From NCBI GenBank assembly GCA_964458665.1, contig CAYWOO010000056.1:10821-74820 (forward strand): a stretch of 64,000 bases of DNA, read 5' to 3'. The stretch is from an uncultured Dehalococcoidia bacterium (lineage in GTDB: Bacteria > Chloroflexota > Dehalococcoidia > DSTF01 > JACRBR01). Position numbers and translations under genes: made by a program. A model generated the notes under the pieces. That model searched no databases, was not told where the DNA came from, and saw nothing but the letters and a program-made list of their open reading frames with translations. This document shows positions 12,989 through 64,000 of the stretch, piece by piece; positions within the stretch are counted from its first letter, which is position 1, and each line of letters opens with the position of its first letter.

Positions 12989-14800
<1,812 letters not shown>

Positions 14801-14870: not shown

Positions 14871-14947
<77 letters not shown>

Positions 14948-16102: not shown

Positions 16103-16179
16103 TGGGGTGGACGGAGGGATTTGAACCCTCGGTCTCCAGGGCCACAACCTGGCGCGTTAACCGCTACGCTACGCCCACC
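16103..16179 (-). tRNA. tRNA-His (anticodon GTG) with genomically encoded G-1 and CCA
   Basis: Reverse complement GGTGGGCGTAGCGTAGCGGTTAACGCGCCAGGTTGTGGCCCTGGAGACCGAGGGTTCAAATCCCTCCGTCCACCCCA. Cloverleaf pairs cleanly; the extra 5' G is diagnostic of His. Confidence 0.85.
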
Positions 16180-53831: not shown

Positions 53832-54632
53832 ATGCCACTTGTCAACGGCTGGATGCAGCGGCGAATCGCCAACGCCACCGCGGCGCCCCCCCGCCGTCTA
53901 CGTTGGCGCTTCGGCGGATTCCGCCAGCACGGTATAGTCGCGCTGATGGTGGACGATACCGGCTCCGAGCCTGCCGATGACCTGGACGGGACGCCGGCCT
54001 CCGACAAAGATCGAAGCGTCATCGCGGCGCTGCGTGCCGGCGATGACGACGCGTTTGCCGCGCTCGTCGAACGCTACAGCAGCCGACTTCAGCGACTGGC
54101 ATTCGTCTACGTGAGGGATCGGCATGTCGCCGAGGAAGTGGTCCAGGAGACGTGGATCGGCCTGCTACAGAGCATCCACCGCTTCGAGGGCCGCTCGTCA
54201 CTCAAGACGTGGCTCTTCCGCATCTTGCTGAACGTTGCCCGCAGCCGCGCCCGCCGAGAGTCGCGTACGATCCCGTTTTCATCGCTCTTCGACGCGTCGA
54301 CCGAAGCGGGCGAACCGTCCGTCGATGCCGACCGCTTCCAGCCGGCGGGCGCCCGCTGGCCCGACCACTGGACGACGCCCCCGGGCCAGTGGAGCCAGAA
54401 CCCCGAATCGCAGGCCGCCTCGTCGGAGACGCGGGCGCACGTCAGTGCTGCCATCGGAACGCTGCCGGACAACCAGCGCGAAGTGATCACGCTGCGCGAC
54501 ATTGACGGACTCACGTCGTTGGAGGTCTGTAACCTTCTCAAGATTTCCGACACTAATCAGAGAGTGCTTCTGCATCGGGCGCGCGGCAAGGTCCGCAAGG
54601 CGCTGGAAGTCTACGTCGGGGAGGCGCGGTAA
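53832..54632 (+). CDS. RNA polymerase sigma-70 factor, ECF subfamily
   Basis: Region 2 (LQRLAFVYVRDRHVAEEVVQETWIGL) and region 4 (REVITLRDIDGLTSLEVCNLLKISDTNQRVLLHRARGKVR). Start may be an internal ATG at 53946. Confidence 0.75.
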   Translation: MPLVNGWMQRRIANATAAPPRRLRWRFGGFRQHGIVALMVDDTGSEPADDLDGTPASDKDRSVIAALRAGDDDAFAALVERYSSRLQRLAFVYVRDRHVAEEVVQETWIGLLQSIHRFEGRSSLKTWLFRILLNVARSRARRESRTIPFSSLFDASTEAGEPSVDADRFQPAGARWPDHWTTPPGQWSQNPESQAASSETRAHVSAAIGTLPDNQREVITLRDIDGLTSLEVCNLLKISDTNQRVLLHRARGKVRKALEVYVGEAR

Positions 54633-54635
54633 GGA

Positions 54636-54899
54636 GTGAGCATCGACGACGAGATCACCTGCAAAGAGATTGTGGAGTTGGTGACCGAGTATCTCGAGTC
54701 TGCCATGTCCGAGCCCGATCGCGCCCGCTTCGATGACCACCTCAGCATATGCCGCGGCTGCGCCAACTACCTTGATCAGATGCGCGAGACGATCCGCGTC
54801 ACCGGTACGCTCACGGAGGATTCGTTGTCGCCGGCCGCGAAAGCTAACCTGCTCACCGCCTTTCGCGACTGGAAGCGCGGCGCCGCGCCTTCAAGCTAG
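54636..54899 (+). CDS. Zinc-finger (zf-HC2) anti-sigma factor
   Basis: GTG start 4 nt after the sigma stop. DHLSICRGCANYLD is an HxxxCxxC motif. Confidence 0.6.
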   Translation: MSIDDEITCKEIVELVTEYLESAMSEPDRARFDDHLSICRGCANYLDQMRETIRVTGTLTEDSLSPAAKANLLTAFRDWKRGAAPSS

Positions 54900-54917: not shown

Positions 54918-55691
54918 TCACCCGTGCCGCGTCGAAATCCCGCCGTCGACCGGAATCACCGTACCCGTGAGGTACGAGCCCGCGCGCGACGCGAGGAAGA
55001 TCGCCGTCCCCGCCATGTCATCGGGTCGCCCAATGCGACGCAGCGGGCACGATGCCCGGATTGAATCGCCAAACTTCTTCAGCGTGTCCGCCATCATCTT
55101 GCTCTCGAACGGTCCCGGCGCGATCGCGTTGACGGTGATCCTGCTGCCTGCCAGCCGGTGCGCCAGCGTGCGCGTCAGGTGGTGCACCGCTGCCTTGCTC
55201 GACGAGTATGCGTACGTCTCCAACGCGGGCGCCTGCAACCCGTCGATCGAGCCGATGTTGATCACACGCGCCGGATCGTCGTCGCTGGCGGCCCGCTCCA
55301 GCAGCGGCGTCATGAAGCGCGTCAGGTTGAACACGCCCTTCACGTTCAGCGCGAACACCTTGTCGAACGCCCCGTCCGGGTACTCGGCCAGCGGCGCACC
55401 CCAGTTGGCGCCCGCGTTGTTCACCAGCACGTGCACCCGCTCTTCGCGTGCCCCAACGGCCGCCGTCAGTTCGCGGCACCCGGCCTCCGTGCTCAGGTCC
55501 GCGGGAATCGCGACGCAACTCCCGGCCTTCGACAGCTCCGCCTCTACCTCGCGGCAGACTTCGGCGTTGCGCGACGAGATGTAGACTTTCGCGCCCGCTT
55601 CGACGAACCCGCGCGCGATCATCAGCCCGATGCCACGCGACCCGCCGGTCACGACGACGACCTTGCCTTCGACGGAGAACAATCCACTCAC
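54918..55691 (-). CDS. SDR-family oxidoreductase
   Basis: GTG start with AAGGAG RBS. KVVVVTGGSRGIG, NNAG, YSSSKAAV (YxxxK). Confidence 0.8.
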   Translation of the reverse strand: MSGLFSVEGKVVVVTGGSRGIGLMIARGFVEAGAKVYISSRNAEVCREVEAELSKAGSCVAIPADLSTEAGCRELTAAVGAREERVHVLVNNAGANWGAPLAEYPDGAFDKVFALNVKGVFNLTRFMTPLLERAASDDDPARVINIGSIDGLQAPALETYAYSSSKAAVHHLTRTLAHRLAGSRITVNAIAPGPFESKMMADTLKKFGDSIRASCPLRRIGRPDDMAGTAIFLASRAGSYLTGTVIPVDGGISTRHG

Positions 55692-56055
55692 GAGCGCGGC
55701 TCCTTTCAGCCAGAGAACAGATCCGGAACGCCGCGCTCCAGCCGACGGCGCGGAACGCGGGCAGCCTGCGTTAGGGCGATGAAGGTCGCTTCGGATTATC
55801 ATGGAAGCGCAAGTAGGCGGCCAATCACGGTCAGCACGCCAACACCTCAGCGCTCTCCGCGGTGAATCGATGCTTATTGCTGTGCTGGAAGGTGCTGTAT
55901 CGTCAGATTCGCACGGACCGACTGCGATGCCGCGTCGTCAGATCCAGACCCACCCAGCCGAAATCGGGGCGGTACGCCTGTACCCATGCGTGTAGGCGCG
56001 GATCTGTCTGTCCGCATGCGGGCACAATGCTCCTGCGACGCACGCGGGTACGGCG

Positions 56056-56892
56056 CTACTCGGAAATCGTCACGAGAAATCGATCGTGAAATCGCACCAG
56101 CACATCCAGCACAGGCCGCCCCGCGACGGCGATGAGCACCGCGTTCGCAACCGCGCGCCACGCGTCCCATCCAGCCGACGTCAGCACGTAGAACGCCCAG
56201 TAGTGACGCAGCGTCGGTACGAATCCCAGGCCCGCGTGCCACGAGATGTCCTCGCTCGTCACGGTGTACGGCCAGAACCAGATGTTCATCAGCGCGCCGA
56301 AGGCGAAGCCCGCTACGATGCCGAACGCCATCAGCAACACGATCTCGCTGCGCCTTCCGCGGACGAACGACGGCCGCACCGCGCCCAGCCAGCCGCTCGT
56401 CATCCCCAGCCAGCCCGAGGCGAACATCTGAAACGGCACCCACGGACCGAACCCGCCCGAGACGAACGCCGACACGGCCAGCGACAGGGCTCCGAGCAGA
56501 AAGCCGAAGCGCGGCCCGAAGACGTACCCGCTGAGGATGATCAGAAAGAAGAACGCGCTCGCGCCAGCCGGCAGCGTCGGCAAACGCAGCGCGGCAGCGG
56601 CCACGGTCAGCACGGCCAGCGCCGACGCGACCTTCGCGTTCATGCCACCCGATGCCAGCTCGATGAGGAAGAGCAGGGCGGCGAGGCCAGCCAGCAGGCC
56701 GAAGATCAGCGGCGCATCGCCGGCGTGCGCGCCGGTTTCGGTCCGCGGCGCCGTCGAGAGCACGAACGGGTACAAGAACGCCGCCACGCCGACGGCACTC
56801 GCCACCAGCAGCGTCAGCGGCGACGCCATGCGCGCCAGCGCCGGCTTCGGCATCGCCGGCACGCGCGCCAGTTCGAGCGTAGCGTCACGCAT
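56056..56892 (-). CDS. Multi-TM membrane protein, candidate ECF-transporter substrate-specific (S) component
   Basis: GGAGG RBS. Start ATGCGTGA overlaps the upstream stop. 6-7 TM helices, Trp/Gly-rich. Last gene of the ECF operon. Confidence 0.45.
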   Translation of the reverse strand: MRDATLELARVPAMPKPALARMASPLTLLVASAVGVAAFLYPFVLSTAPRTETGAHAGDAPLIFGLLAGLAALLFLIELASGGMNAKVASALAVLTVAAAALRLPTLPAGASAFFFLIILSGYVFGPRFGFLLGALSLAVSAFVSGGFGPWVPFQMFASGWLGMTSGWLGAVRPSFVRGRRSEIVLLMAFGIVAGFAFGALMNIWFWPYTVTSEDISWHAGLGFVPTLRHYWAFYVLTSAGWDAWRAVANAVLIAVAGRPVLDVLVRFHDRFLVTISE

Positions 56893-57941
56893 CGAGCTGC
56901 CTCCGCCGATACCACATGAAGCCGCCCACCGCGGCCAGCGCCGCCACGACCGAGCCGAAGCCCGCGACCGGCACGATGTCGAAGCCGTCACCGTTGCGTC
57001 GCTGCGCCGTTGACGCGTTTCGCAGGCCGGCATCCGGCTCCACGATCGCGACGCCGGCCTTTGGAGTGTTGGTCGGCACGTCGGGGCTCGCCGTGGACGA
57101 AGCGCCCGCGCTCACCGATGCAACCGGCGTCACCGCTGCTCCCGCGACAGCGTTCACGGATGACGCCGACGCGGCAGCGTTCGGCGCGCTCGCCGAATTA
57201 GGAGGCGCGTCCGTTGCCGCCGTCGGTGCCTCGGATGTGGAGCCGGCGGGCCCCGCGAGCGACGTCGTCGCCGCGGACGGCGTCGCAGGACGAGGCGTCG
57301 AGGCGGGTGGTTCCGATGGCTCTTCCGCTGGTGCTGACTCCACGGTTGCCGGTGTTGGTGTCGCAGTCGGCGGCTGCGACGTTGCCGTCCGTGTGGGCGT
57401 CGTCGTCGGCAGGGGGCAGACCGAACCAGGACCCTCTGGCGCGGCGCCGTTGCCCGGGCCCCACGACCAGCCGTCCGTATCGCCGTCGTGAATCACGCGC
57501 AACGCACTCCCTACTGGAGAGAGCTGCCACGCGTTGTTCTTCCACTGAAAGTACGCCCAGTACTGGCAGGGATTGCTCTTGCAGAACTTGAAGCAGTCCG
57601 CTGAGTCGGTGCTCCCTGTTTCGTCGATAGCGCATACGCCCACGCCGCCCGTGCTGCCCAGCACGAGACTTAAACCGGAACGTTGCAGCAGATCAAGGCC
57701 GCTGATCGAGTCTTCGTTGAACAGAACGCAGATCTTCCGAGTCGGCTTACCATCACCGAACGTGATGACGATCGCGGCGGAATGCACGTCGGCAGCGTTC
57801 GCTGCGCTCTCTGCCGGAACACAAACCGAAGCTCCGCCCGCCGTGCTCGCCGCCGAACTCGCCTGCGCCGTCGTTCCGAGCCCGATCGCCAACGCGAGTG
57901 CGAAGAACAGCGCACCTGCCATCGCAAGGCGAAGCCTCATC
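56885..57941 (-). CDS. Surface-anchored protein with Cys-rich DUF4430/transcobalamin-beta-like domain, Thr/Pro/Ala linker and C-terminal TM anchor
   Basis: ATGA overlap with the ATPase stop. Signal peptide MRLRLAMAGALFFALALAIG. Domain SVCVPAES...CAIDETGSTDSADCFKFCKSNPCQYWAYFQWKNNAWQ. C-terminal VVAALAAVGGFMWYRRRQ. Confidence 0.55.
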
Positions 57942-59529
57942 GCATCGCCTCCGCGCGAGCCTGCGCGATCGCGTCGTCGGCCGTCAGCACTCCGCCGCCA
58001 AGCAGCTTGTTCGCCTGCGTGCTGAAGGCGATCGAGCCCGCCAGCACGCTGCGCACCGGCCCGTCGTCGATCACTTCGCCCTCCGCCAGCAGCACGACGC
58101 GATCCGCGCAGCGCCCGGCAAGCTCCACGTCGTGGCTCGCGATGACGATGCTCGCCCCGGCGTCGCGCCGCCGCCGCAGCTCGACAAGTAGCAGCTCTTT
58201 CGTGTGCGCATCCATGCCGCGCGTCGGCTCGTCCAGCAGGATCAGCCGCGGCGATCCCACGAGCATCGCAGCCAGGGCGACGCGCTGCCGCTCGCCGACA
58301 CTGAGGTCGCGCGGATCGCGCTCCGCCAACTCCTCCAGCTCCCACGCGCGCAGCGCTTCTCCGACCGAACCGTCGCGGCGCGTCCCTTGCAGAACGTCAC
58401 CGATCTCGCGCGCCACGGTCCGCTGATACAGCATCGACGCCGGATCCTGCATCACGAACGCGAGGTGACGGTATCGTTCATCCTGCATCTCCGGCCGCGC
58501 GAACACAATCGCGGCAGAGTTCTGTGCGACGAGCCCGGCGAGTGCGCGCAGCAACGTCGTCTTGCCGGCGCCGTTCCGCCCCATGAGCGCGACGATCTCC
58601 CCGGCTCGCAGATCGAGCGTCACGCGCCGCAGCACGTCGCGGCCGCCGAGCTGCACCGAAAGATCGCGCACGCTGGCGATCACGTCTCCCGCCGATTGGG
58701 CAACGACCACCGTCGGACGTTCGTGCCGCGGCCCGGCGAAATTGCGCGCTTCCGCCACCGAAAGCGGCAGCGGCGACCACCCCAGTGCCGCTCCGATCAG
58801 ACTTACCGGCGGCGCCGATGGCGATGCGGCCATCGCGTCGCGCGGCGCTGCGATCGACACACTGCCGTCGCCCGGCATGTGCATCATGCGGTCGGCGTGC
58901 TGCACCAGCCGGTCGAGCCGATGCTCCGACGCTATCACCGTGAGGCCGAGGTCGTCACGCAGCTCCAGCACCTTCGCCAGCACGTCCTGCGCGGCCTGCG
59001 GGTCGAGTTGCGACGTCGGCTCATCGAGCAGCAGGACGCGCGGGTGCATCGCTAGCACCGCCGCCAGTTCCACGCGCTGTTGCTCGCCGCCGGATAGCGA
59101 CGCCGGCGCCCGCGCCCGCAGGTGCGCGATCCCCAGCGCGTCCAGCATCTCCTCCAGCCGCCTGCGCGTCAGCGCGCGATCGCACCCGAGGTTCTCCAGC
59201 CCGAAGACGATCTCGTCTTCGACGGTCTGTGCGACGATCTGCGTCTCCGGCTCTTGAAACACCATCCCGGCCACGCTCGCCATCTCGCGCGGCTGGCGCG
59301 TGCGTGTATCGATGCCAGCGATGCGCACGCAGCCTGAGAATGCGCCGCCGTGAAAGTGCGGCACCAGGCCGTTGAAGCAGCGTAGCAGCGTCGATTTGCC
59401 CCCACCCGACGGCCCCCAGACGACCAGCAGTTCGCCTTCGTCGACATCGAAGCAGACATCGGACAGAACCGGACGTGGCGCGTTCGCGTACTGAAACCCG
59501 AGTTGGCGCGTCTCCACGATTGTGGTCAT
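57937..59529 (-). CDS. Fused double ABC ATPase (EcfA-EcfA' type energy-coupling module)
   Basis: Two Walker A (GPSGGGKST, GRNGAGKTT), two signatures (LSGGEQQR, LSVGERQR) and two Walker B (LLLDEPTS, LILDEPTR). Confidence 0.85.
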   Translation of the reverse strand: MTTIVETRQLGFQYANAPRPVLSDVCFDVDEGELLVVWGPSGGGKSTLLRCFNGLVPHFHGGAFSGCVRIAGIDTRTRQPREMASVAGMVFQEPETQIVAQTVEDEIVFGLENLGCDRALTRRRLEEMLDALGIAHLRARAPASLSGGEQQRVELAAVLAMHPRVLLLDEPTSQLDPQAAQDVLAKVLELRDDLGLTVIASEHRLDRLVQHADRMMHMPGDGSVSIAAPRDAMAASPSAPPVSLIGAALGWSPLPLSVAEARNFAGPRHERPTVVVAQSAGDVIASVRDLSVQLGGRDVLRRVTLDLRAGEIVALMGRNGAGKTTLLRALAGLVAQNSAAIVFARPEMQDERYRHLAFVMQDPASMLYQRTVAREIGDVLQGTRRDGSVGEALRAWELEELAERDPRDLSVGERQRVALAAMLVGSPRLILLDEPTRGMDAHTKELLLVELRRRRDAGASIVIASHDVELAGRCADRVVLLAEGEVIDDGPVRSVLAGSIAFSTQANKLLGGGVLTADDAIAQARAEAMR

Positions 59530-60647
59530 TGCGGACGCCCTCGCTCGTACAACAGAGCTGGAGCCAGCAGCATCAGCGCGGCTCCCGCGCCGGCCGGGCC
59601 GAACGCCGGCGCCGCGACCTCCGGGAACGGCAGGTACGTGATGCCGCCGCGCTCAGTCGCGCGCAGGATCACGAACATCGCTGCGCCGAACAGCGCCGCC
59701 ACGAGCACGCCGCCGTCGCGCGGGGACAACGGGAGTCGCCGCATACGGACGGCGGCGTTCCCGCTCCCCTGTCGCCAGACCGCGAGCAGCGCCGCGCCGC
59801 TTGCGGCGACCGCGATCGTCATCATCAAACCGTGATGCGCCGTGTAGTACGACGCGAATGCTGTCGACGCGGCGATCGCGACGCACGCCACCGTTAACAC
59901 CGAGGCCGTCGCGCTCGATCCGGCCTCGAGGCGGCCGAAGCCGCGTGCGTCGAGTGACTCAGCGCGCTGTACAGATCGTTCCAGCGACTCCGCCAGTAGC
60001 GGGATGAGCAGCGCCGTGTACGATCGCAATCCACCGCGATGCCCGCGCAGCACGCGCGCTTCGCGCAACGCCGCGGCGCGCGCAACCGTCTCCGGTATCA
60101 GCAGCAACGCCACCGTTACGATGATCCCCAGTTGCGCCAGTCCCGGCGGTACGAGCTTGAGCAGCCGGAAGTGGTCGATCGCGCCGTTGAAGGCGCATAC
60201 CATCACGACGATCGCGATGATGCCGACGGCGCGGCTCGCGGCGTACGCCAGGGATTCAGCGGTGATCGTGCCGCCGAAGGTGACGCTTGCAAGCCATCCA
60301 GGAAGCGTCACTTCCGGCAGATCGAAGAGCGGCGTCGCACCGGTGCTCCCTGTCAGCAGATTGAGCGGCAGCATCGACAATGTGAACAGCAGGGAGATCG
60401 GCAGCAACAGATCGAGACTTCGTCGATCGGTGCGGCGCGTTGTCCCGTATACGACGAACGCAACGAGCGCGACCGTCGCGAGGTACAGCGGATTCGACGT
60501 GAGGAACACCATCGTCATGCCCGCTGCCAGCCACCCGGCCCACGCCGCGGGATGTGCGGCGGGCGAGCGCGGGCGCGCCGGCATCGCTCCCGGGACGCGC
60601 CGCGCTCTGCTGGATTCGGCCGCTGCGCTCACACCGTGCCTCGCCAT
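59526..60647 (-). CDS. ECF transporter transmembrane (T) component (CbiQ/EcfT family)
   Basis: C-terminal ...ERSVQRAESLDARGFG (AxxxRG hallmark). Start uncertain; internal MTMVFLTSNPLYL at about 60518 is possible. GTGA overlap with the ATPase. Confidence 0.65.
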   Translation of the reverse strand: MARHGVSAAAESSRARRVPGAMPARPRSPAAHPAAWAGWLAAGMTMVFLTSNPLYLATVALVAFVVYGTTRRTDRRSLDLLLPISLLFTLSMLPLNLLTGSTGATPLFDLPEVTLPGWLASVTFGGTITAESLAYAASRAVGIIAIVVMVCAFNGAIDHFRLLKLVPPGLAQLGIIVTVALLLIPETVARAAALREARVLRGHRGGLRSYTALLIPLLAESLERSVQRAESLDARGFGRLEAGSSATASVLTVACVAIAASTAFASYYTAHHGLMMTIAVAASGAALLAVWRQGSGNAAVRMRRLPLSPRDGGVLVAALFGAAMFVILRATERGGITYLPFPEVAAPAFGPAGAGAALMLLAPALLYERGRPQ

Positions 60648-61960
60648 CTGCGCATGGAAACAGTGCCCGCTCCGAGCAAACCGCCACCCATCAGCAGCAG
60701 AACAATCGCCGATGCGGGCGTGCCGGCGTCGCCATCGGGACCCGCGCCCGCGCTGGGCAGGCGGAACTCACCCGCAACCGCCGCCAGCCGCGTCGGCGCG
60801 GCTGCGGAACTGCCATTCACCACGCCACCGGCCGGCGCAGTCGATGTCGCCGCAGCGACGGGCGTCGCCGTGGCCGGCACACTCGTCGCGGTCCTCGTCT
60901 TCACGTGCGCGGTAGACGTCGACGTGAAGGTCGCGGTCGGCGTCGCCGGGGTCGCCGTAGCCGTCGGCGTGTTCGTGGACGTGCGCGTCGCGGTGCTCGT
61001 CGAAATCGTGCCTTCGGTAGAATACTCCGCTTGCTCCGGGAAGGCTGACAGCATCAGTCCCGCCACACCCTGGTACGTCGCGAACGCGCTGTCCGTGCCG
61101 AAGTACTGTAGCTCGCCCGTCGTCGCGTTTTGGGATGCCTTCAGCGCGACGAGCGGCGTTGCGCCGGCGCCCGCGTCCCACGCGCCGCCCGCGTCGAGAC
61201 TCCCGCCCACTGCCACGATCGCCTGGATGGCATATGCGGTTGAGTTTGGATCGGACGATCCCGGCGCGGAGTACGGTATGCCGCCGTCCGGCTGCTGGCT
61301 CGCCTTGAGGTACGCAACGCCGTTGACGATATGCGTATCGCTCGCAGCAACACCGGCGGCGATCAGCGCGCGGATCGCCAGCGCTGTCGCGTTCGTGTCC
61401 TCGCCATATGCGCAGCAGAACTCCCAACCACCGTCCGCCTTTTGCAGCGAGTTCAGATATGTGATCGCCTCTGTCGGCACGCTTCGCCCTAGCGCAGCGT
61501 CCGCCAGCATGAACAGCGACTGCGCGAACACGTCGGCTCCGTAGGCGCCCGTTGCCGTGGTGTAGTTCGCATCCATGAGCGCTAGCGGGTTCACGCCGCC
61601 GAACGCCGCCGGATCAAGATCCATCGTCGCCAGCCCCACGACGAGCTTCGCCGCGCCTCCCGGCGTCGCCGAGAACGCCGCCGCTTGCGTCGCGAGAAAG
61701 TCCGCGGGCGAATGGCCGTTCTTCTTCACGGTAGCCGGATTCAAACCGAACGCCGCTAACGCGAACGTCGCCTCGAGCGTCATTCCCGGCGACGACGGTG
61801 CGACCGCCGCGGCATCGCGGAAGCCGCCGTCGTCGTTTTGGAGCGTGTAGATGAAGTCGATAGCATGCTGCGCCGCAGCGGTTTCCGGTTGCGCCGCGTA
61901 GAGTTGTGTGCCGCCCAGCGCGAACGCCAGACCCAGGCACGCGAGAGCGATGAGTCGCAT
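60629..61960 (-). CDS. Secreted prenyltransferase/squalene-cyclase-repeat (alpha/alpha toroid) protein with Thr/Pro linker and C-terminal TM anchor
   Basis: Signal peptide MRLIALACLGLAFALGGTQLYAA. Repeats QNDDGGF, QKADGGW, QQPDGGI. C-terminal AIVLLLMGGGLLGAGTVSMRRWRG. Confidence 0.6.
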   Translation of the reverse strand: MRLIALACLGLAFALGGTQLYAAQPETAAAQHAIDFIYTLQNDDGGFRDAAAVAPSSPGMTLEATFALAAFGLNPATVKKNGHSPADFLATQAAAFSATPGGAAKLVVGLATMDLDPAAFGGVNPLALMDANYTTATGAYGADVFAQSLFMLADAALGRSVPTEAITYLNSLQKADGGWEFCCAYGEDTNATALAIRALIAAGVAASDTHIVNGVAYLKASQQPDGGIPYSAPGSSDPNSTAYAIQAIVAVGGSLDAGGAWDAGAGATPLVALKASQNATTGELQYFGTDSAFATYQGVAGLMLSAFPEQAEYSTEGTISTSTATRTSTNTPTATATPATPTATFTSTSTAHVKTRTATSVPATATPVAAATSTAPAGGVVNGSSAAAPTRLAAVAGEFRLPSAGAGPDGDAGTPASAIVLLLMGGGLLGAGTVSMRRWRGTV

Positions 61961-61992
61961 CACGTACAGCCTTTCGATAGTGGTGATCGTCG

Positions 61993-62035
61993 AGTTGAGA
62001 AAAACAGTGACCCCGAACGAATTCGTTCGGGGTCA
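61993..62035 (-). terminator. Rho-independent terminator (perfect palindrome GACCCCGAACGAATTCGTTCGGGGTC followed on the minus strand by CTGTTTTTCT)
   Basis: 11-bp GC-rich stem, 4-nt loop and a downstream U-tract in minus-strand orientation. Lies between the methyltransferase/TlpA genes and the ECF operon start. Confidence 0.5.
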
Positions 62036-62321
62036 GGCGTCAGAAATGCTGAAACATGATCCTGCCCCTTTCACGCGAAGGTTCATGGATTTGCTTGAGG
62101 AAGGTATTCTGGCTCGGCCGCGATGGAACGGCCTCACAGTTGCGCGACAGCGCCGGATTCGCACCGGCTTCCCCTGTCCGACTCAGCCACACGGGCGTGA
62201 GTCGCCTCAAGCGCATCGATATTCGGTTGTCACCCCACGCTACCCCCGCAGCCATCGAACGTCAAGCTGTAGTGACAAGAGCACGGAGCGCTGCGGGGGT
62301 GCGCTGAAGATCCCCCACGGC

Positions 62322-62404: not shown

Positions 62405-63208
62405 TCAGAAGCGTGCCAGTACTTCGCCGTGTGGCACGGAGAAGTACGCATCCGGACGCGCCGCCCACTCCCGCCAGGCGCTCGCGATATCCGTCAGTTC
62501 GGCTCGATCGGTCAGACCGTAGGACAGCGCCTGCTCGCCGAACGCCGACAGCTCGCAACGGTCGGCCCAGAGTGCGCCCCACCAGCGGCAGGATTCTGGC
62601 TCCGCGTACGTCCACGTGGAACTCGATGCTTGAACATCGCTGAAGCCCGCGGCGAGCGCCCAGCCCTTCAAGAAGCGCGCCGCATCCGGCTCGGCGCCGT
62701 TCCGCCGGGCTACGGCGCGATAGAGCTCGAGCCAGCGGTCGAGGCGCGGATCAAGCGGCGCCCAGGAGAAGCATGAGTAGTCGGCGTCGCGCAGCGCCAC
62801 CACGCCGTCCGGCCGCGTCACGCGCCGCATCTCCGTCAGCGCGCGGACAGGATCGGTGAGATGTTGCAACACCTGATGCGCGTGTACCACGTCGAAGGAA
62901 TCGTCGTCGTACGCGAGCGCGTACACGTCACCGGTCTCGAACGTCACGGCCACGTCCTGCTCTGTGGCGTACTTCGCGGCCTGCGCGACGACTTCGTCCG
63001 AACGATCGATGCCGACCACGCGGCCGGGCGCGACCCGTCGCGCGAGATCGACCGTAATCGTGCCGGGGCCGCAACCCACATCCAGTACCTCCAGCCCGGT
63101 CCATAGCGACGGAATGAGGTACGCGGCGGAGTTCTCGATCGTGCGTGAGCGATGGCTGCGCAAGACCGAGTCGTGGTGTCCGTGTGTGTAGACGTCGCGC
63201 TCGCCCAT
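62405..63208 (-). CDS. Class I SAM-dependent methyltransferase
   Basis: AGGGAG RBS before MGERDVY. VLDVGCGPGTITVDLA motif I. Confidence 0.8.
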   Translation of the reverse strand: MGERDVYTHGHHDSVLRSHRSRTIENSAAYLIPSLWTGLEVLDVGCGPGTITVDLARRVAPGRVVGIDRSDEVVAQAAKYATEQDVAVTFETGDVYALAYDDDSFDVVHAHQVLQHLTDPVRALTEMRRVTRPDGVVALRDADYSCFSWAPLDPRLDRWLELYRAVARRNGAEPDAARFLKGWALAAGFSDVQASSSTWTYAEPESCRWWGALWADRCELSAFGEQALSYGLTDRAELTDIASAWREWAARPDAYFSVPHGEVLARF

Positions 63209-63306
63209 GCCCTGCTCCCTATCGTCATTGTCCGCCGCCGCGCAGTCACGTAGACGAGCGCGCATAGGGCGTGAGTTTCGACAGCACAACTTCGCTCCCT
63301 GTTCAG

Positions 63307-63918
63307 TTAGTCCGTTCGTTGCGGCGACTTCGTCTCCGCGAACCGCTGCTGCATTGCCTCATATGTCAGGCCGCCGTGAACGACGACGCGTACGTAGCCG
63401 TCCTTGTCAATGAAGAAGCTGTGCGGGAGGCCCGCCGGCAGGTTGTAGGCATCGCTCACGGACTCGTCGCGGTCGAGCGCAAAGGCGAGGGCCGTGAGCC
63501 CGCGTGCGTCCGACCATGCCTGCGCCGTACCGCTGCCTTCTGCCTGATTCACAGCCAGTACGACCAAGTCGTCAGGATGTTCGGAGGCCAATCGCTGCAT
63601 GTCGGGCATTTCTTCTGCACAAGTCGTGCACCAGGTTGCCCAGAAGTTCAACAGCACCGTCTTGCCACGGTAGTCGGCGAGCCGTATCGCCCGACCATCG
63701 TAACCCGCGAGGACGAAGTCGGGTGCGATGGAGCCTTCACGCGGTGCAGCGGCGGGTGTGTCGACCGGGCCGGTCTCAACACGCGTGCCATCGGCTTCGA
63801 GCGCAGTTGGCGGGTCGCCCTTCTGCAGGTAGACATATCCCAGCACGCCGACGATCACAAAGACTGCCGCTACTCCGACGGCGGTTCGAAGCCACCGCAT
63901 GGTTTCGAGTTTCTGCAT
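63307..63918 (-). CDS. TlpA-family thiol-disulfide oxidoreductase (membrane-anchored thioredoxin-like)
   Basis: N-terminal TM. WATWCTTC CxxC motif. Start taken at MQKLETM because it sits 1 nt after the upstream stop; alternative start at 63927. Confidence 0.75.
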   Translation of the reverse strand: MQKLETMRWLRTAVGVAAVFVIVGVLGYVYLQKGDPPTALEADGTRVETGPVDTPAAAPREGSIAPDFVLAGYDGRAIRLADYRGKTVLLNFWATWCTTCAEEMPDMQRLASEHPDDLVVLAVNQAEGSGTAQAWSDARGLTALAFALDRDESVSDAYNLPAGLPHSFFIDKDGYVRVVVHGGLTYEAMQQRFAETKSPQRTD

Positions 63919-63919
63919 G

Positions 63920-64000
63920 TCAACCATCCGATGTCATGGGGAGTAGGATCGTGAACACAGACCCGGTGCCCGGCCGGGATCGCACCTGCACCTGGCCGCC
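63920..64000 (-). CDS. C-terminal end of a probable sensor histidine kinase; the 5' end runs off the window
   Basis: ...GGQVQVRSRPGTGSVFTILLPMTSDG* resembles an HATPase_c C-terminus. Only 27 codons visible. Confidence 0.3.
   Translation of the reverse strand, partial: GGQVQVRSRPGTGSVFTILLPMTSDG

What the first reader, a model, noticed from the sequence alone, without database searches (positions are those of the whole stretch)
56056..61963. ECF-type importer operon interleaved with two surface-anchored proteins that together resemble a split transcobalamin-like receptor
Five same-strand genes run 61960->56056 and are tightly coupled (59526/59529 overlap, ATGA at 57937/57941, ATGCGTGA at 56885/56892). 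In order they are a secreted alpha/alpha-toroid protein, EcfT, a fused double ATPase, a second secreted protein, and a multi-TM putative S component. The first secreted protein carries three prenyltransferase/squalene-cyclase Q-x-x-D-G-G repeats. The second carries a Cys-rich domain of about 130 aa that I recall as DUF4430-like, that is, like the transcobalamin/intrinsic-factor beta domain. Both secreted proteins share a signal peptide, a Thr/Pro/Ala-rich linker and a C-terminal TM helix with an RRR/RRWR stop-transfer tail. Eukaryotic transcobalamin is an alpha6/alpha6 barrel plus a beta domain; here the two halves would be separate cell-surface proteins delivering ligand to a dedicated ECF transporter. 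Such an arrangement in a high-GC organism would be an unusual corrinoid or other cofactor capture system. A sigma70-like TTCTCA-16-TATCGA promoter lies immediately after the upstream terminator.
Basis: partly seen in the sequence, partly recalled or inferred. Interest (0 to 1): 0.78.

Follow-up and report, generated by a model that had tools for sequence, protein, structure and literature searches.

The report
B12-riboswitch ECF importer with transcobalamin-like surface proteins
This is a five-gene vitamin-B12 (corrinoid) uptake operon from a Chloroflexota bacterium, switched off by a B12 riboswitch, in which an ECF-type importer comes with two membrane-tethered surface proteins that look like the two halves of animal transcobalamin; the design was already predicted in 2007 and described in a Lactobacillus, so this is a well-supported new example and not a new kind of system.

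The parts
62237..62265 (-). Candidate sigma-70-type promoter TTGACG-17 nt-TAGCGT. The -10 element ends 12 nt before the aptamer start.
   Evidence: Read from the sequence. It was not called by the consensus scan because the -10 matches only 3 of 6 positions. Inference only.
62082..62224 (-). Cobalamin riboswitch aptamer (RF00174). Short form: the model's 61-nt peripheral insert is replaced by 10 nt.
   Evidence: 64.2 bits against a gathering score of 31.5, E 3e-14, full model 1-189. Homologous aptamers lie upstream of related operons.
61998..62035 (-). Intrinsic terminator forming the riboswitch expression platform. The scan counts a 12-pair stem (11 pairs in the RNA fold), a 4-nt loop, then CUGUUUUUCU. 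It lies 46 nt after the aptamer and 34 nt before the start codons.
   Evidence: Terminator scan. RNA fold of 62085-61995: -33.5 kcal/mol, z -3.2.
60629..61960 (-). P1, 443 aa: signal peptide (aa 1-22), (α/α)6 toroid (aa 23-310), T/A/P/S-rich linker (aa 311-415), C-terminal TM helix (aa 416-436) and an RRWRGTV tail. Proposed α-like half of the corrinoid receptor.
61031..61894 (-). Toroid domain of P1 (aa 23-310), the part that was modelled.
59526..60632 (-). P2, EcfT (CbiQ-type) transmembrane coupling subunit, 368 aa from GTG 60632 (373 aa from ATG 60647). Longer than usual, with extra C-terminal hydrophobic segments.
   Evidence: PF02361 25.8 bits against a cut-off of 25. Public gene call of 368 aa overlapping P1 by 4 nt. 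Hydropathy. Conserved in related loci.
57937..59529 (-). P3, fused EcfA-EcfA' double ABC ATPase, 530 aa.
   Evidence: Two PF00005 domains, 192.8 bits. TIGR04520 301 bits and TIGR04521 282 bits.
56885..57940 (-). P4, 351 aa: signal peptide (aa 1-25), Cys-rich β-grasp domain of the SCO2322 family (aa 28-178), T/P/A/S-rich linker (aa 179-318), TM helix (aa 319-343) and an RRRQLDA tail. Proposed β-like half of the corrinoid receptor.
57407..57859 (-). β-grasp (transcobalamin-β-like) domain of P4 (aa 28-178), the part that was modelled.
56056..56892 (-). P5, ECF substrate-specific (S) component, 278 aa, multi-TM. Its own family, with no detectable sequence similarity to CbrT or BtuM.
   Evidence: PF12822 35.4 bits against a cut-off of 30.7; PF07155 28.2 bits. 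No PDB S-component hit by sequence or profile. Conserved in 54 related loci.

Best explanation
This is a dedicated (group I) ECF-type corrinoid/vitamin B12 importer whose operon is repressed by a cobalamin riboswitch.

**Regulation.** When intracellular cobalamin is high, the leader aptamer binds it and the downstream hairpin plus U-run terminates transcription. When cobalamin is low, the five translationally coupled genes are expressed.

**Capture.** P1 (toroid) and P4 (β-grasp) are exported through their signal peptides. Each stays tethered to the membrane by one C-terminal helix, at the end of an extended Thr/Pro/Ala-rich stalk of 100-140 residues that lets it reach into or through the wall of this monoderm bacterium. 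They capture free corrinoid, most likely by sandwiching it between toroid and β-grasp domain as transcobalamin, intrinsic factor and haptocorrin do.

**Import.** They pass the corrinoid to the membrane S-component P5. P5 docks on EcfT (P2) and is driven by the fused EcfA-A' ATPase (P3).

**Shown here:** the riboswitch and terminator, the gene identities, both folds, the export and anchor signals, conserved synteny with the riboswitch, and the domain fusions.

**Inferred:** corrinoid binding by P1 and P4, their heterodimerisation, hand-off to P5, and P5's specificity.
For: **Regulation**
- Cobalamin riboswitch at 64.2 bits, directly followed by an intrinsic terminator and then the operon.
- The same aptamer appears in 13 of 13 related operons tested with Rfam and again in L086.
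- With a custom model, 62 of 79 Chloroflexota loci carry it. Of the 61 loci with at least 700 nt upstream, 54 carry it and 51 have it directly upstream of the first gene.

**Transporter**
- ECF T, A-A' and S components are all present and translationally coupled.

**Accessory proteins**
- P1 is extracytoplasmic and lacks the DxDD catalytic motif.

**Gene linkage**
- Toroid, β, S, T and A-A' genes co-occur in three different gene orders.
- Fusions exist: toroid-β (P0196), β-β-toroid (P0119, P0129), β-toroid (P0049), and S-component-toroid (P0050-54, P0056, P0060, L003, L086).
- In L003 and L086 a genuine DUF4430 gene takes the β-protein's place in a riboswitch-controlled ECF operon. L086 sits next to a PduO-type cobalamin adenosyltransferase gene.

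**Literature**
- Burroughs et al. 2007 inferred B12 scavenging for TC-like SLBB plus toroid proteins in CbiO/CbiQ operons (PMC1796856).
- ECF-CbrT shows that ECF transporters can import cobalamin (PMC5997447).
Against: - There is no biochemical evidence for any member of this family.
- P4 and 40 relatives do not match the DUF4430 HMM. A profile comparison with one DUF4430 protein was not significant.
- The toroid is structurally nearer to terpene cyclases than to the transcobalamin α-domain. The 'α-half' assignment therefore rests on context and fusions, not on a specific fold match.
- P5 shows no sequence similarity to the validated B12 S-component CbrT, or to BtuM.
- The only experimentally studied operon with this architecture (L. 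sakei lsa1836-1840) was linked to heme uptake, not B12.
- Cobalamin riboswitches also control cobalt transporters.
- 7 of 61 loci with enough upstream sequence lack any riboswitch. Rfam found none in six of them (L016, L019, L024, L036, L045, L076); L049 was searched only with the custom model. Most of these are orphan β-genes.
Confidence: 0.72

Rival explanations
1. The system imports heme or another non-corrin tetrapyrrole, as proposed for the architecturally identical L. sakei lsa1836-1840 ECF-like operon. On this reading the two surface proteins capture heme.
For: The L. sakei operon encodes S, fused A-A', T, a β-like and an α-like transcobalamin protein, and its authors constructed a deletion mutant and report the system as acting in heme uptake (bioRxiv 10.1101/864751). 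An ECF heme importer is reported in S. lugdunensis (PMC7299338, listed). P5 is not detectably related to CbrT.
Against: A cobalamin riboswitch precedes this operon and about 54 of 61 related Chloroflexota loci, as well as the DUF4430-type versions. Every high-scoring structural match of the β-domain is a corrinoid binder or DUF4430. One related locus neighbours a cobalamin adenosyltransferase gene.
Confidence: 0.07
2. The system is a cobalt (or nickel) ECF importer feeding B12 synthesis, functionally like CbiMNQO. On this reading the surface proteins serve some unrelated envelope role.
For: Cobalamin riboswitches commonly control cobalt transporters (PMC3766115). P2 and P3 best match CbiQ/CbiO-type models.
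Against: No CbiM or CbiN is present; the S-component matches PF12822/PF07155 instead. CbiQ/CbiO models match ECF T and A subunits generally. The toroid and β genes are conserved inside the riboswitch-controlled unit, and the toroid is fused to the S-component in relatives. That is hard to explain for a metal-ion importer.
Confidence: 0.06
3. The operon imports corrinoids, but P1 and P4 do not form one transcobalamin-like sandwich. They act separately. For example, P4 alone might bind corrinoid as the isolated TC β-domain can, while P1 binds a different part of the pathway, another cobamide precursor, or a wall component that positions the complex.
For: The toroid's nearest structural neighbours are terpene cyclases, not TC. 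Many loci carry two β-genes or two toroid genes, and a few have orphan β-genes. A structure of the TC β-domain alone bound to cyanocobalamin exists (5np4, listed).
Against: Toroid-β fusions occur in both orders. The two genes are adjacent in 63 of 79 loci. The identical domain pair forms the corrinoid pocket in TC, IF and HC (PMC1796856).
Confidence: 0.13
4. P1 is an extracytoplasmic terpenoid or prenyl-modifying enzyme, and the operon concerns isoprenoid or envelope lipid transport.
Against: There is no DxDD motif. Scores lie far below the cyclase equivalog cut-offs (33-38 bits against 322-431). P1 has a secreted, tethered topology away from isoprenoid diphosphate pools. The riboswitch and ECF context is invariant in the clade that contains P1.
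Confidence: 0.02

Closest known systems
Bacterial transcobalamin-like SLBB (DUF4430) plus α/α-toroid surface proteins encoded with CbiO/CbiQ genes (Burroughs, Balaji, Iyer & Aravind 2007, Biol Direct 2:4; PMC1796856)
   Same: - Secreted or surface-anchored β-grasp domain of the transcobalamin clade.
- Partnered with, or fused to, an α/α toroid.
- Encoded in operons with ECF-type ATPase and T subunits.
- Predicted to scavenge B12 or its precursors.
- Paralogous second β-proteins are common.
   Different: - Here the β-domain is a separate, Cys-rich sequence family (SCO2322/PF28005) that the DUF4430 HMM does not detect.
- The host is high-GC Chloroflexota, not Firmicutes or archaea.
- Anchoring is by a C-terminal TM helix, not an LPXTG motif.
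- Riboswitch control is documented here across about 60 loci.
Latilactobacillus sakei lsa1836-1840 ECF-like system (bioRxiv 10.1101/864751)
   Same: It has the same five parts: S-component, fused A-A' ATPase, EcfT, a separate β-like protein and a separate α-like (toroid) transcobalamin-type protein. Both accessory proteins have export signals.
   Different: - The L. sakei system was assigned to heme uptake from a deletion mutant and docking.
- The passages read mention no B12 riboswitch there.
- The gene order is different.
- Per the authors' HHpred analysis, the L. sakei β-protein is readily matched to the β-domains of haptocorrin, intrinsic factor and transcobalamin.
Transcobalamin / intrinsic factor / haptocorrin (PF01122; PDB 2bb6, 2pmv, 4kkj)
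   Different: - Here there are two separate, membrane-tethered polypeptides.
- No sequence-level similarity was found (no PF01122 hit).
- The toroid is closer to terpene cyclases.
- There is an extra Cys-rich insert.
- Delivery is to an ECF transporter, not to an endocytic receptor.
ECF-CbrT (L. delbrueckii; PMC5997447) and BtuM
   Same: ECF-CbrT is an ECF-type (S-component-based) route for cobalamin and cobinamide uptake in bacteria that lack or supplement BtuCDF. BtuM is a predicted B12 uptake protein that binds B12 (PMC6072759, listed).
   Different: - CbrT shares a general ECF module (group II) and has no accessory surface proteins.
- P5 shows no detectable sequence similarity to any solved chain, which would include CbrT and BtuM.
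- The module here is dedicated and has a fused ATPase.
DUF4430-type riboswitch-controlled ECF operons with an S-component-toroid fusion
   Same: A cobalamin riboswitch, then β-protein(s), CbiQ-type T, fused A-A' ATPase, toroid and S-component. This is the same functional parts list.
   Different: - The β-protein there is a true DUF4430.
- The toroid is covalently fused to the S-component and not separately tethered.
- The riboswitch is the long form (182-184 nt).

Membership tests
ECF transporter, dedicated-module (group I) type | EcfT (CbiQ-family) transmembrane subunit | tested here: met
   PF02361 25.8 bits against a cut-off of 25, which is marginal. Orthologues in L002, L003 and L086 are labelled CbiQ.
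ECF transporter, dedicated-module (group I) type | Two ABC ATPase domains of the EcfA/EcfA' type | tested here: met
   Two PF00005 domains in one 530-aa protein. TIGR04520 scores 301 bits (cut-off 315) and TIGR04521 282 bits (cut-off 330). These are the best-matching models but lie just under the equivalog cut-offs.
ECF transporter, dedicated-module (group I) type | Integral-membrane S-component encoded in the same operon | tested here: met
   PF12822 35.4 bits against a cut-off of 30.7. 8-nt overlap with P4. Conserved in related loci.
Cobalamin riboswitch (Rfam RF00174) | Score above the gathering threshold over the full model, on the operon's strand and upstream of it | tested here: met
   64.2 bits against 31.5, model positions 1-189, at 62224-62082 on the minus strand.
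Cobalamin riboswitch (Rfam RF00174) | Expression platform able to switch gene expression | tested here: met
   Hairpin (11-12 pairs) plus U-run, 46 nt downstream of the aptamer. Ligand-dependent switching cannot be tested here.
Pfam DUF4430 (PF14478) | Match to the family HMM | tested here: not met
   No hit at E<=1 for P4 or for any of 41 family members. hhalign against one DUF4430 protein gave E 0.089 and probability 0.6%.
Transcobalamin-like clade of the SLBB β-grasp superfamily (fold level) | β-grasp core whose closest structural matches are the transcobalamin-clade β-domains | tested here: met
SCO2322 family (Pfam PF28005 / NCBIfam NF040672) | Match to the family model | tested here: inconclusive
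   NF040672 scores 20.1 bits against a cut-off of 85, so it is not met. The Pfam search reported no PF28005 match for P4. Orthologues in the same operon position and 40-47% identical relatives carry precomputed PF28005 labels.
SCO2321 family membrane protein (NCBIfam NF053823) | Score above the equivalog cut-off | tested here: not met
   69.2 bits against a cut-off of 300. Related, but not an equivalog.
Eukaryotic cobalamin-binding proteins (Pfam PF01122) | Sequence match of the toroid to Cobalamin_bind | tested here: not met
Class II terpene cyclase / squalene-hopene cyclase | Catalytic DxDD motif and scores at family level | tested here: not met
   No D.DD in P1. TIGR01507 scores 33.5 against 431 and TIGR01787 scores 38.3 against 322. 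Only the repeat/domain models PF13243 and PF00432 pass.
CbrT and BtuM (known or predicted B12 membrane binding proteins) | Detectable sequence similarity of P5 to CbrT or BtuM | tested here: not met
   phmmer and a 30-sequence profile against all PDB chains at E<=10 returned no S-component. This assumes the ECF-CbrT and BtuM crystal structures reported in PMC5997447 and PMC6072759 are in that PDB copy.
CbiMNQO / NikMNQO metal ECF transporters | CbiM/NikM S-component and a CbiN-type partner | tested here: not met
   No CbiM or CbiN family hit among the five proteins.
Corrinoid-binding function of P1, P4 and P5 | Direct binding or transport of a cobamide | not testable with these tools
   Requires biochemistry or a ligand-aware complex prediction.

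The most novel reading that the evidence does not exclude
The two tethered proteins form a heterodimeric, transcobalamin-like clamp around a corrinoid and hand it to the S-component. That would make this widespread family (about 1800 clusters at 50% identity) a class of ECF transporters that depend on extracytoplasmic binding proteins, against the textbook rule that ECF transporters have none. It would also represent the unfused bacterial state from which animal transcobalamin, intrinsic factor and haptocorrin arose. A further speculative twist is that one of the conserved cysteines of the Cys-rich insert ligates cobalt, as in BtuM.
Probability: 0.45. Interest if true: 0.65.

Novelty: new member of a known kind. 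Interest (0 to 1): 0.45.

Why it matters
**What is already known.** The parts list and its B12-scavenging reading were predicted in 2007, and an identical architecture is on record in L. sakei. The kind of system is therefore not new.

**What this adds.**
- The large, unnamed SCO2322/PF28005 family is a transcobalamin-β-like fold, which sequence HMMs miss.
- In Chloroflexota it is locked into a cobalamin-riboswitch regulon with a toroid protein and a dedicated ECF module, in three gene orders.
- Fusions tie toroid to β-domain, and toroid to S-component.

**Why it matters.**
- It gives a concrete, testable candidate for how abundant soil, sediment and subsurface Chloroflexota, including Dehalococcoidia, scavenge cobamides. 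Cobamide supply is known to limit growth in that lineage.
- It provides a clean case for testing whether some ECF transporters use extracytoplasmic binding proteins.
- It bears on the bacterial origin of animal B12 carriers.

Tried and rejected
- **Word-index homology search with the P4 domain** found nothing. Exhaustive phmmer was needed.
- **Profile of the β-family against PDB sequences** gave only noise.
- **hhalign against a single DUF4430 protein** was not significant, although the register looked right.
- **The 41-sequence alignment** was too diverse to seed the genome scan. A 12-sequence subset worked.
- **The afdb50 fold library** was unavailable.
- **Rodionov et al. 2009** (PMC2612444) is not held. 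Whether this system was named there (for example as CbrTUV) could not be checked.
- **Literature searches** for SCO2321-2325 and for DUF4430 with ECF gave nothing relevant.
- **Source organism.** The exact-sequence look-up returned only a 2.9-kb Logan contig and no name. The taxonomic placement (Chloroflexota, probably Dehalococcoidia) rests on the nearest relatives.
- **Rejected: P1 as a terpene enzyme.** It has no DxDD, is exported and sits in a riboswitch/ECF context. Distant Streptomyces homologues (L004, L085) sit in non-ECF or terpene contexts and serve as negative controls.
- **Rejected: a sortase or other sorting signal.** The only hit is GVDTG_CTERM at 16 bits against a cut-off of 29, and the few relatives' C-termini I read share no motif.
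It sits between the terminator and the RBS, its -10 hexamer runs into the GAAAGG ribosome-binding site, and it fails the scan.


Full report

Yes. The ORF list and the junction sequences show five minus-strand genes.

| Gene | Coordinates | Size | Identity |
|---|---|---|---|
| P1 | 61960-60629 | 443 aa (GTG also at 61963) | secreted toroid protein |
| P2 | 60632-59526 | 368 aa from GTG (in-frame ATG at 60647) | EcfT |
| P3 | 59529-57937 | 530 aa | fused EcfA-A' ATPase |
| P4 | 57940-56885 | 351 aa | secreted Cys-rich protein |
| P5 | 56892-56056 | 278 aa | ECF S-component |

- The long ORF 58345-56885 is an upstream extension of P4 into P3.
- The junctions are GTGA, ATGA, ATGA and ATGCGTGA, so all five genes are translationally coupled.
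- Pfam and NCBIfam give:
  - P1: SQHop_cyclase_C/Prenyltrans, about 33 bits.
  - P2: CbiQ, 25.8 bits, just above the cut-off.
  - P3: two ABC_tran domains, with the ECF ATPase models scoring best.
  - P5: ECF_trnsprt, 35.4 bits.
- Hydropathy and composition confirm that P1 and P4 each have an N-terminal signal, a T/P/A/S-rich linker (105 and 143 aa) and one C-terminal helix followed by RRWR or RRR.
- The three QxxDGG repeats are present.
- The flanking genes are unrelated, so the unit is discrete. They are an ECF sigma factor with an anti-sigma factor, an SDR, a methyltransferase and a thioredoxin-like protein.

**2. The leader decides the question.**

- Rfam finds a full-length cobalamin riboswitch aptamer at 62224-62082 on the operon strand: 64.2 bits against a gathering score of 31.5.
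- An intrinsic terminator lies 46 nt downstream, at 62035-62008, followed by CUGUUUUUCU. It ends about 34 nt before the start codons.
It fails the consensus scan and would give a transcript without an RBS, so I reject it.
- A plausible promoter, TTGACG-17-TAGCGT, ends 12 nt upstream of the aptamer. This is inference only.

**3. What are the two secreted proteins?**

*P4*
- P4 has no Pfam match, and none of 41 family members hits DUF4430.
- A word-index search found nothing. Exhaustive phmmer found 1799 cluster representatives, 1062 of them below 1e-10.
- Relatives carry the precomputed label PF28005 (SCO2322).
- An AlphaFold2 model of residues 28-178, built on a 41-sequence alignment, has pLDDT 89.5.
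- Foldseek independently ranks the same proteins in places 1-19.
- P4 is therefore a transcobalamin-β-like β-grasp domain with a Cys-rich insert. It is related to DUF4430 in fold but not detectably in sequence.

*P1*
- The P1 model (pLDDT 96.3) is an (α/α)6 toroid.
- It lacks DxDD, scores far below the cyclase equivalog cut-offs and is exported. An enzymatic terpene role is unlikely.
- More distant Streptomyces homologues sit in real terpene clusters or in non-ECF contexts. They act as negative controls.

**4. Is the association conserved?**

- A scan of one genome per species found 268 relatives of the β-domain. The best 79 loci are all Chloroflexota: Dehalococcoidia, Anaerolineae, Chloroflexia, Thermoflexales, Ardenticatenia and Caldilineales.
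- Searching their six-frame ORFs with the five window proteins shows a toroid gene on the same strand in 63 of 79 loci and ECF T or S genes in 62 of 79. Most of the rest are truncated contigs.
- Three gene orders occur:
  - toroid-T-AA'-β-S, as in the window and typical of Dehalococcoidia;
  - toroid-β-S-T-AA';
  - toroid-β(β)-T-AA'-S.
- Constant content with shuffled order is strong evidence for functional linkage.
- Rfam found the cobalamin riboswitch in 13 of 13 related operons tested.
- A covariance model built from these aptamers found the riboswitch in 62 of the 79 loci. Of the 61 loci with at least 700 nt upstream, 54 carry it and 51 have it directly upstream of the first gene.
- Of the seven exceptions, Rfam also found no riboswitch in the six it searched. 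L049 was searched only with the custom model. Most are orphan β-genes.

**5. Fusions.**

- Among the retrieved proteins are toroid-β (P0196, the TC domain order, with a C-terminal TM helix), β-β-toroid (P0119, P0129) and β-toroid (P0049).
- Seven proteins fuse an S-component to a toroid (P0050-54, P0056, P0060).
- In L003 and L086 a riboswitch-controlled operon reads DUF4430 (one or two copies)-CbiQ-AA'-S::toroid.
- In L086 the operon lies next to a PduO-type cobalamin adenosyltransferase gene.
- A genuine DUF4430 therefore occupies the place of the SCO2322-type protein, and the toroid can be physically attached to the S-component.

**6. Mechanism.**

The best-supported reading has four steps.
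1. At low B12 the riboswitch permits read-through.
2. P1 and P4 are exported and held at the membrane on long flexible stalks.
3. They capture corrinoid, probably jointly as toroid and β-grasp do in TC, IF and HC.
4. They pass it to S-component P5, which uses the dedicated EcfT and fused EcfA-A' module for ATP-driven import.

- Shown: the regulation element, component identities, folds, topology signals, synteny and fusions.
- Inferred: ligand binding, heterodimerisation, hand-off and P5's specificity.
- P5 has no detectable similarity to CbrT or BtuM. That lowers 'is a CbrT' but does not lower 'works like ECF-CbrT'.

**7. Rivals.**

- **Heme uptake.** This was proposed for the L. sakei operon with the same architecture. 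The riboswitch argues against it here.
- **Cobalt uptake.** This fits the riboswitch but not the absence of CbiM/N or the TC-like binders.
- **Independent action of P1 and P4.** This remains open because no complex could be modelled.
- **A terpene enzyme role for P1.** This is rejected.

**8. Comparison with what is known.**

- Burroughs et al. 2007 (PMC1796856) defined the transcobalamin-like SLBB clade. They noted bacterial fusions to α/α toroids in both orders, surface anchoring, paralogous second proteins and operons with CbiO/CbiQ, and they inferred B12 scavenging.
- The L. sakei preprint (10.1101/864751) describes exactly S, A-A', T, a β-like and an α-like protein. It remarks that this breaks the rule that ECF transporters lack soluble binding proteins.
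- ECF-CbrT (PMC5997447) established cobalamin import by an ECF transporter.
- The present locus is therefore a new member of a known, still biochemically unproven kind. Three things distinguish it:
  - a divergent Cys-rich β-family (SCO2322/PF28005);
  - TM-helix tethering;
  - very consistent cobalamin-riboswitch control in Chloroflexota.

**9. Verdict.**

- Interest is moderate.

Noticed in passing
window 62082-62224 (-); L001, L002, L005-L013, L021, L029, L061, L075 versus L003:1632-1813 and L086:2606-2789: The riboswitches in front of the SCO2322-type operons are short (134-151 nt). In the window, the model's 61-nt peripheral insert is replaced by 10 nt. Those in front of the DUF4430-type operons are long (182-184 nt). 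From my own knowledge, short forms without the peripheral extension recall class II cobalamin riboswitches that prefer MeCbl or HOCbl. Ligand selectivity was not examined.
   Followed up: no
L002:12607-12687: A ZMP/ZTP riboswitch (52 bits) lies directly downstream of the operon, in front of a purH-like gene (AICARFT_IMPCHas). It is unrelated to the finding.
   Followed up: no
L005-L083: The five gene families occur in three different orders. Many Anaerolineae and Chloroflexia loci carry two β-genes and/or two or three toroid genes. L040 and L042 have two toroid-β pairs, and L042 has two riboswitches. This suggests diversification of binders, perhaps for different cobamides.
   Followed up: partly
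L016, L019, L024, L036 (and L015): These loci have orphan SCO2322-type genes with no adjacent toroid. L016, L019, L024 and L036 also lack a riboswitch (Rfam and custom model). In L015 the ECF module lies on the opposite strand behind its own cobalamin riboswitch (13116-13255, minus strand).
   Followed up: partly
window 57407-57859 (-), P4 domain: P4 has seven cysteines in the domain, an odd number. Relative to the family consensus GxGC...CFCxCxGGxC, it and its closest relatives lack two cysteines (GS...CFKFC), which suggests paired loss of one disulfide. Whether a free thiol remains could not be determined.
   Followed up: no
window 59526-60632 (-), P2: This EcfT is long: 368 aa here and 307-362 aa in relatives. 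From my own knowledge, canonical EcfT is about 265 aa. It has extra hydrophobic segments in the C-terminal third. The family-level CbiQ score is only marginal.
   Followed up: no
L086:2042-2596 (-): A PduO-type ATP:cob(I)alamin adenosyltransferase gene (PF01923) lies divergently next to the riboswitch of a DUF4430-type version of the operon. This is extra contextual support for a corrinoid substrate.
   Followed up: partly
window 53832-54899 (+), 54918-55802 (-), 62405-63289 (-), 63307-63927 (-): The flanking genes are an ECF-type sigma factor with a zf-HC2 anti-sigma factor, a short-chain dehydrogenase, a class I SAM methyltransferase and a TlpA/AhpC-like thioredoxin-fold protein with an N-terminal TM segment. 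None is conserved with the operon in related loci.
   Followed up: partly
window 14875-14947 (-), 16106-16178 (-): Two tRNA genes. Apart from the riboswitch, they are the only Rfam matches in the 64-kb window.
   Followed up: no
L085:5382-9954; L004: Distant Streptomyces toroid homologues (E about 2e-5) sit beside a terpene synthase and a P450 (L085), or in a context with no ECF genes (L004). They mark the boundary between real cyclases and the ECF-linked binding-protein clade.
   Followed up: yes
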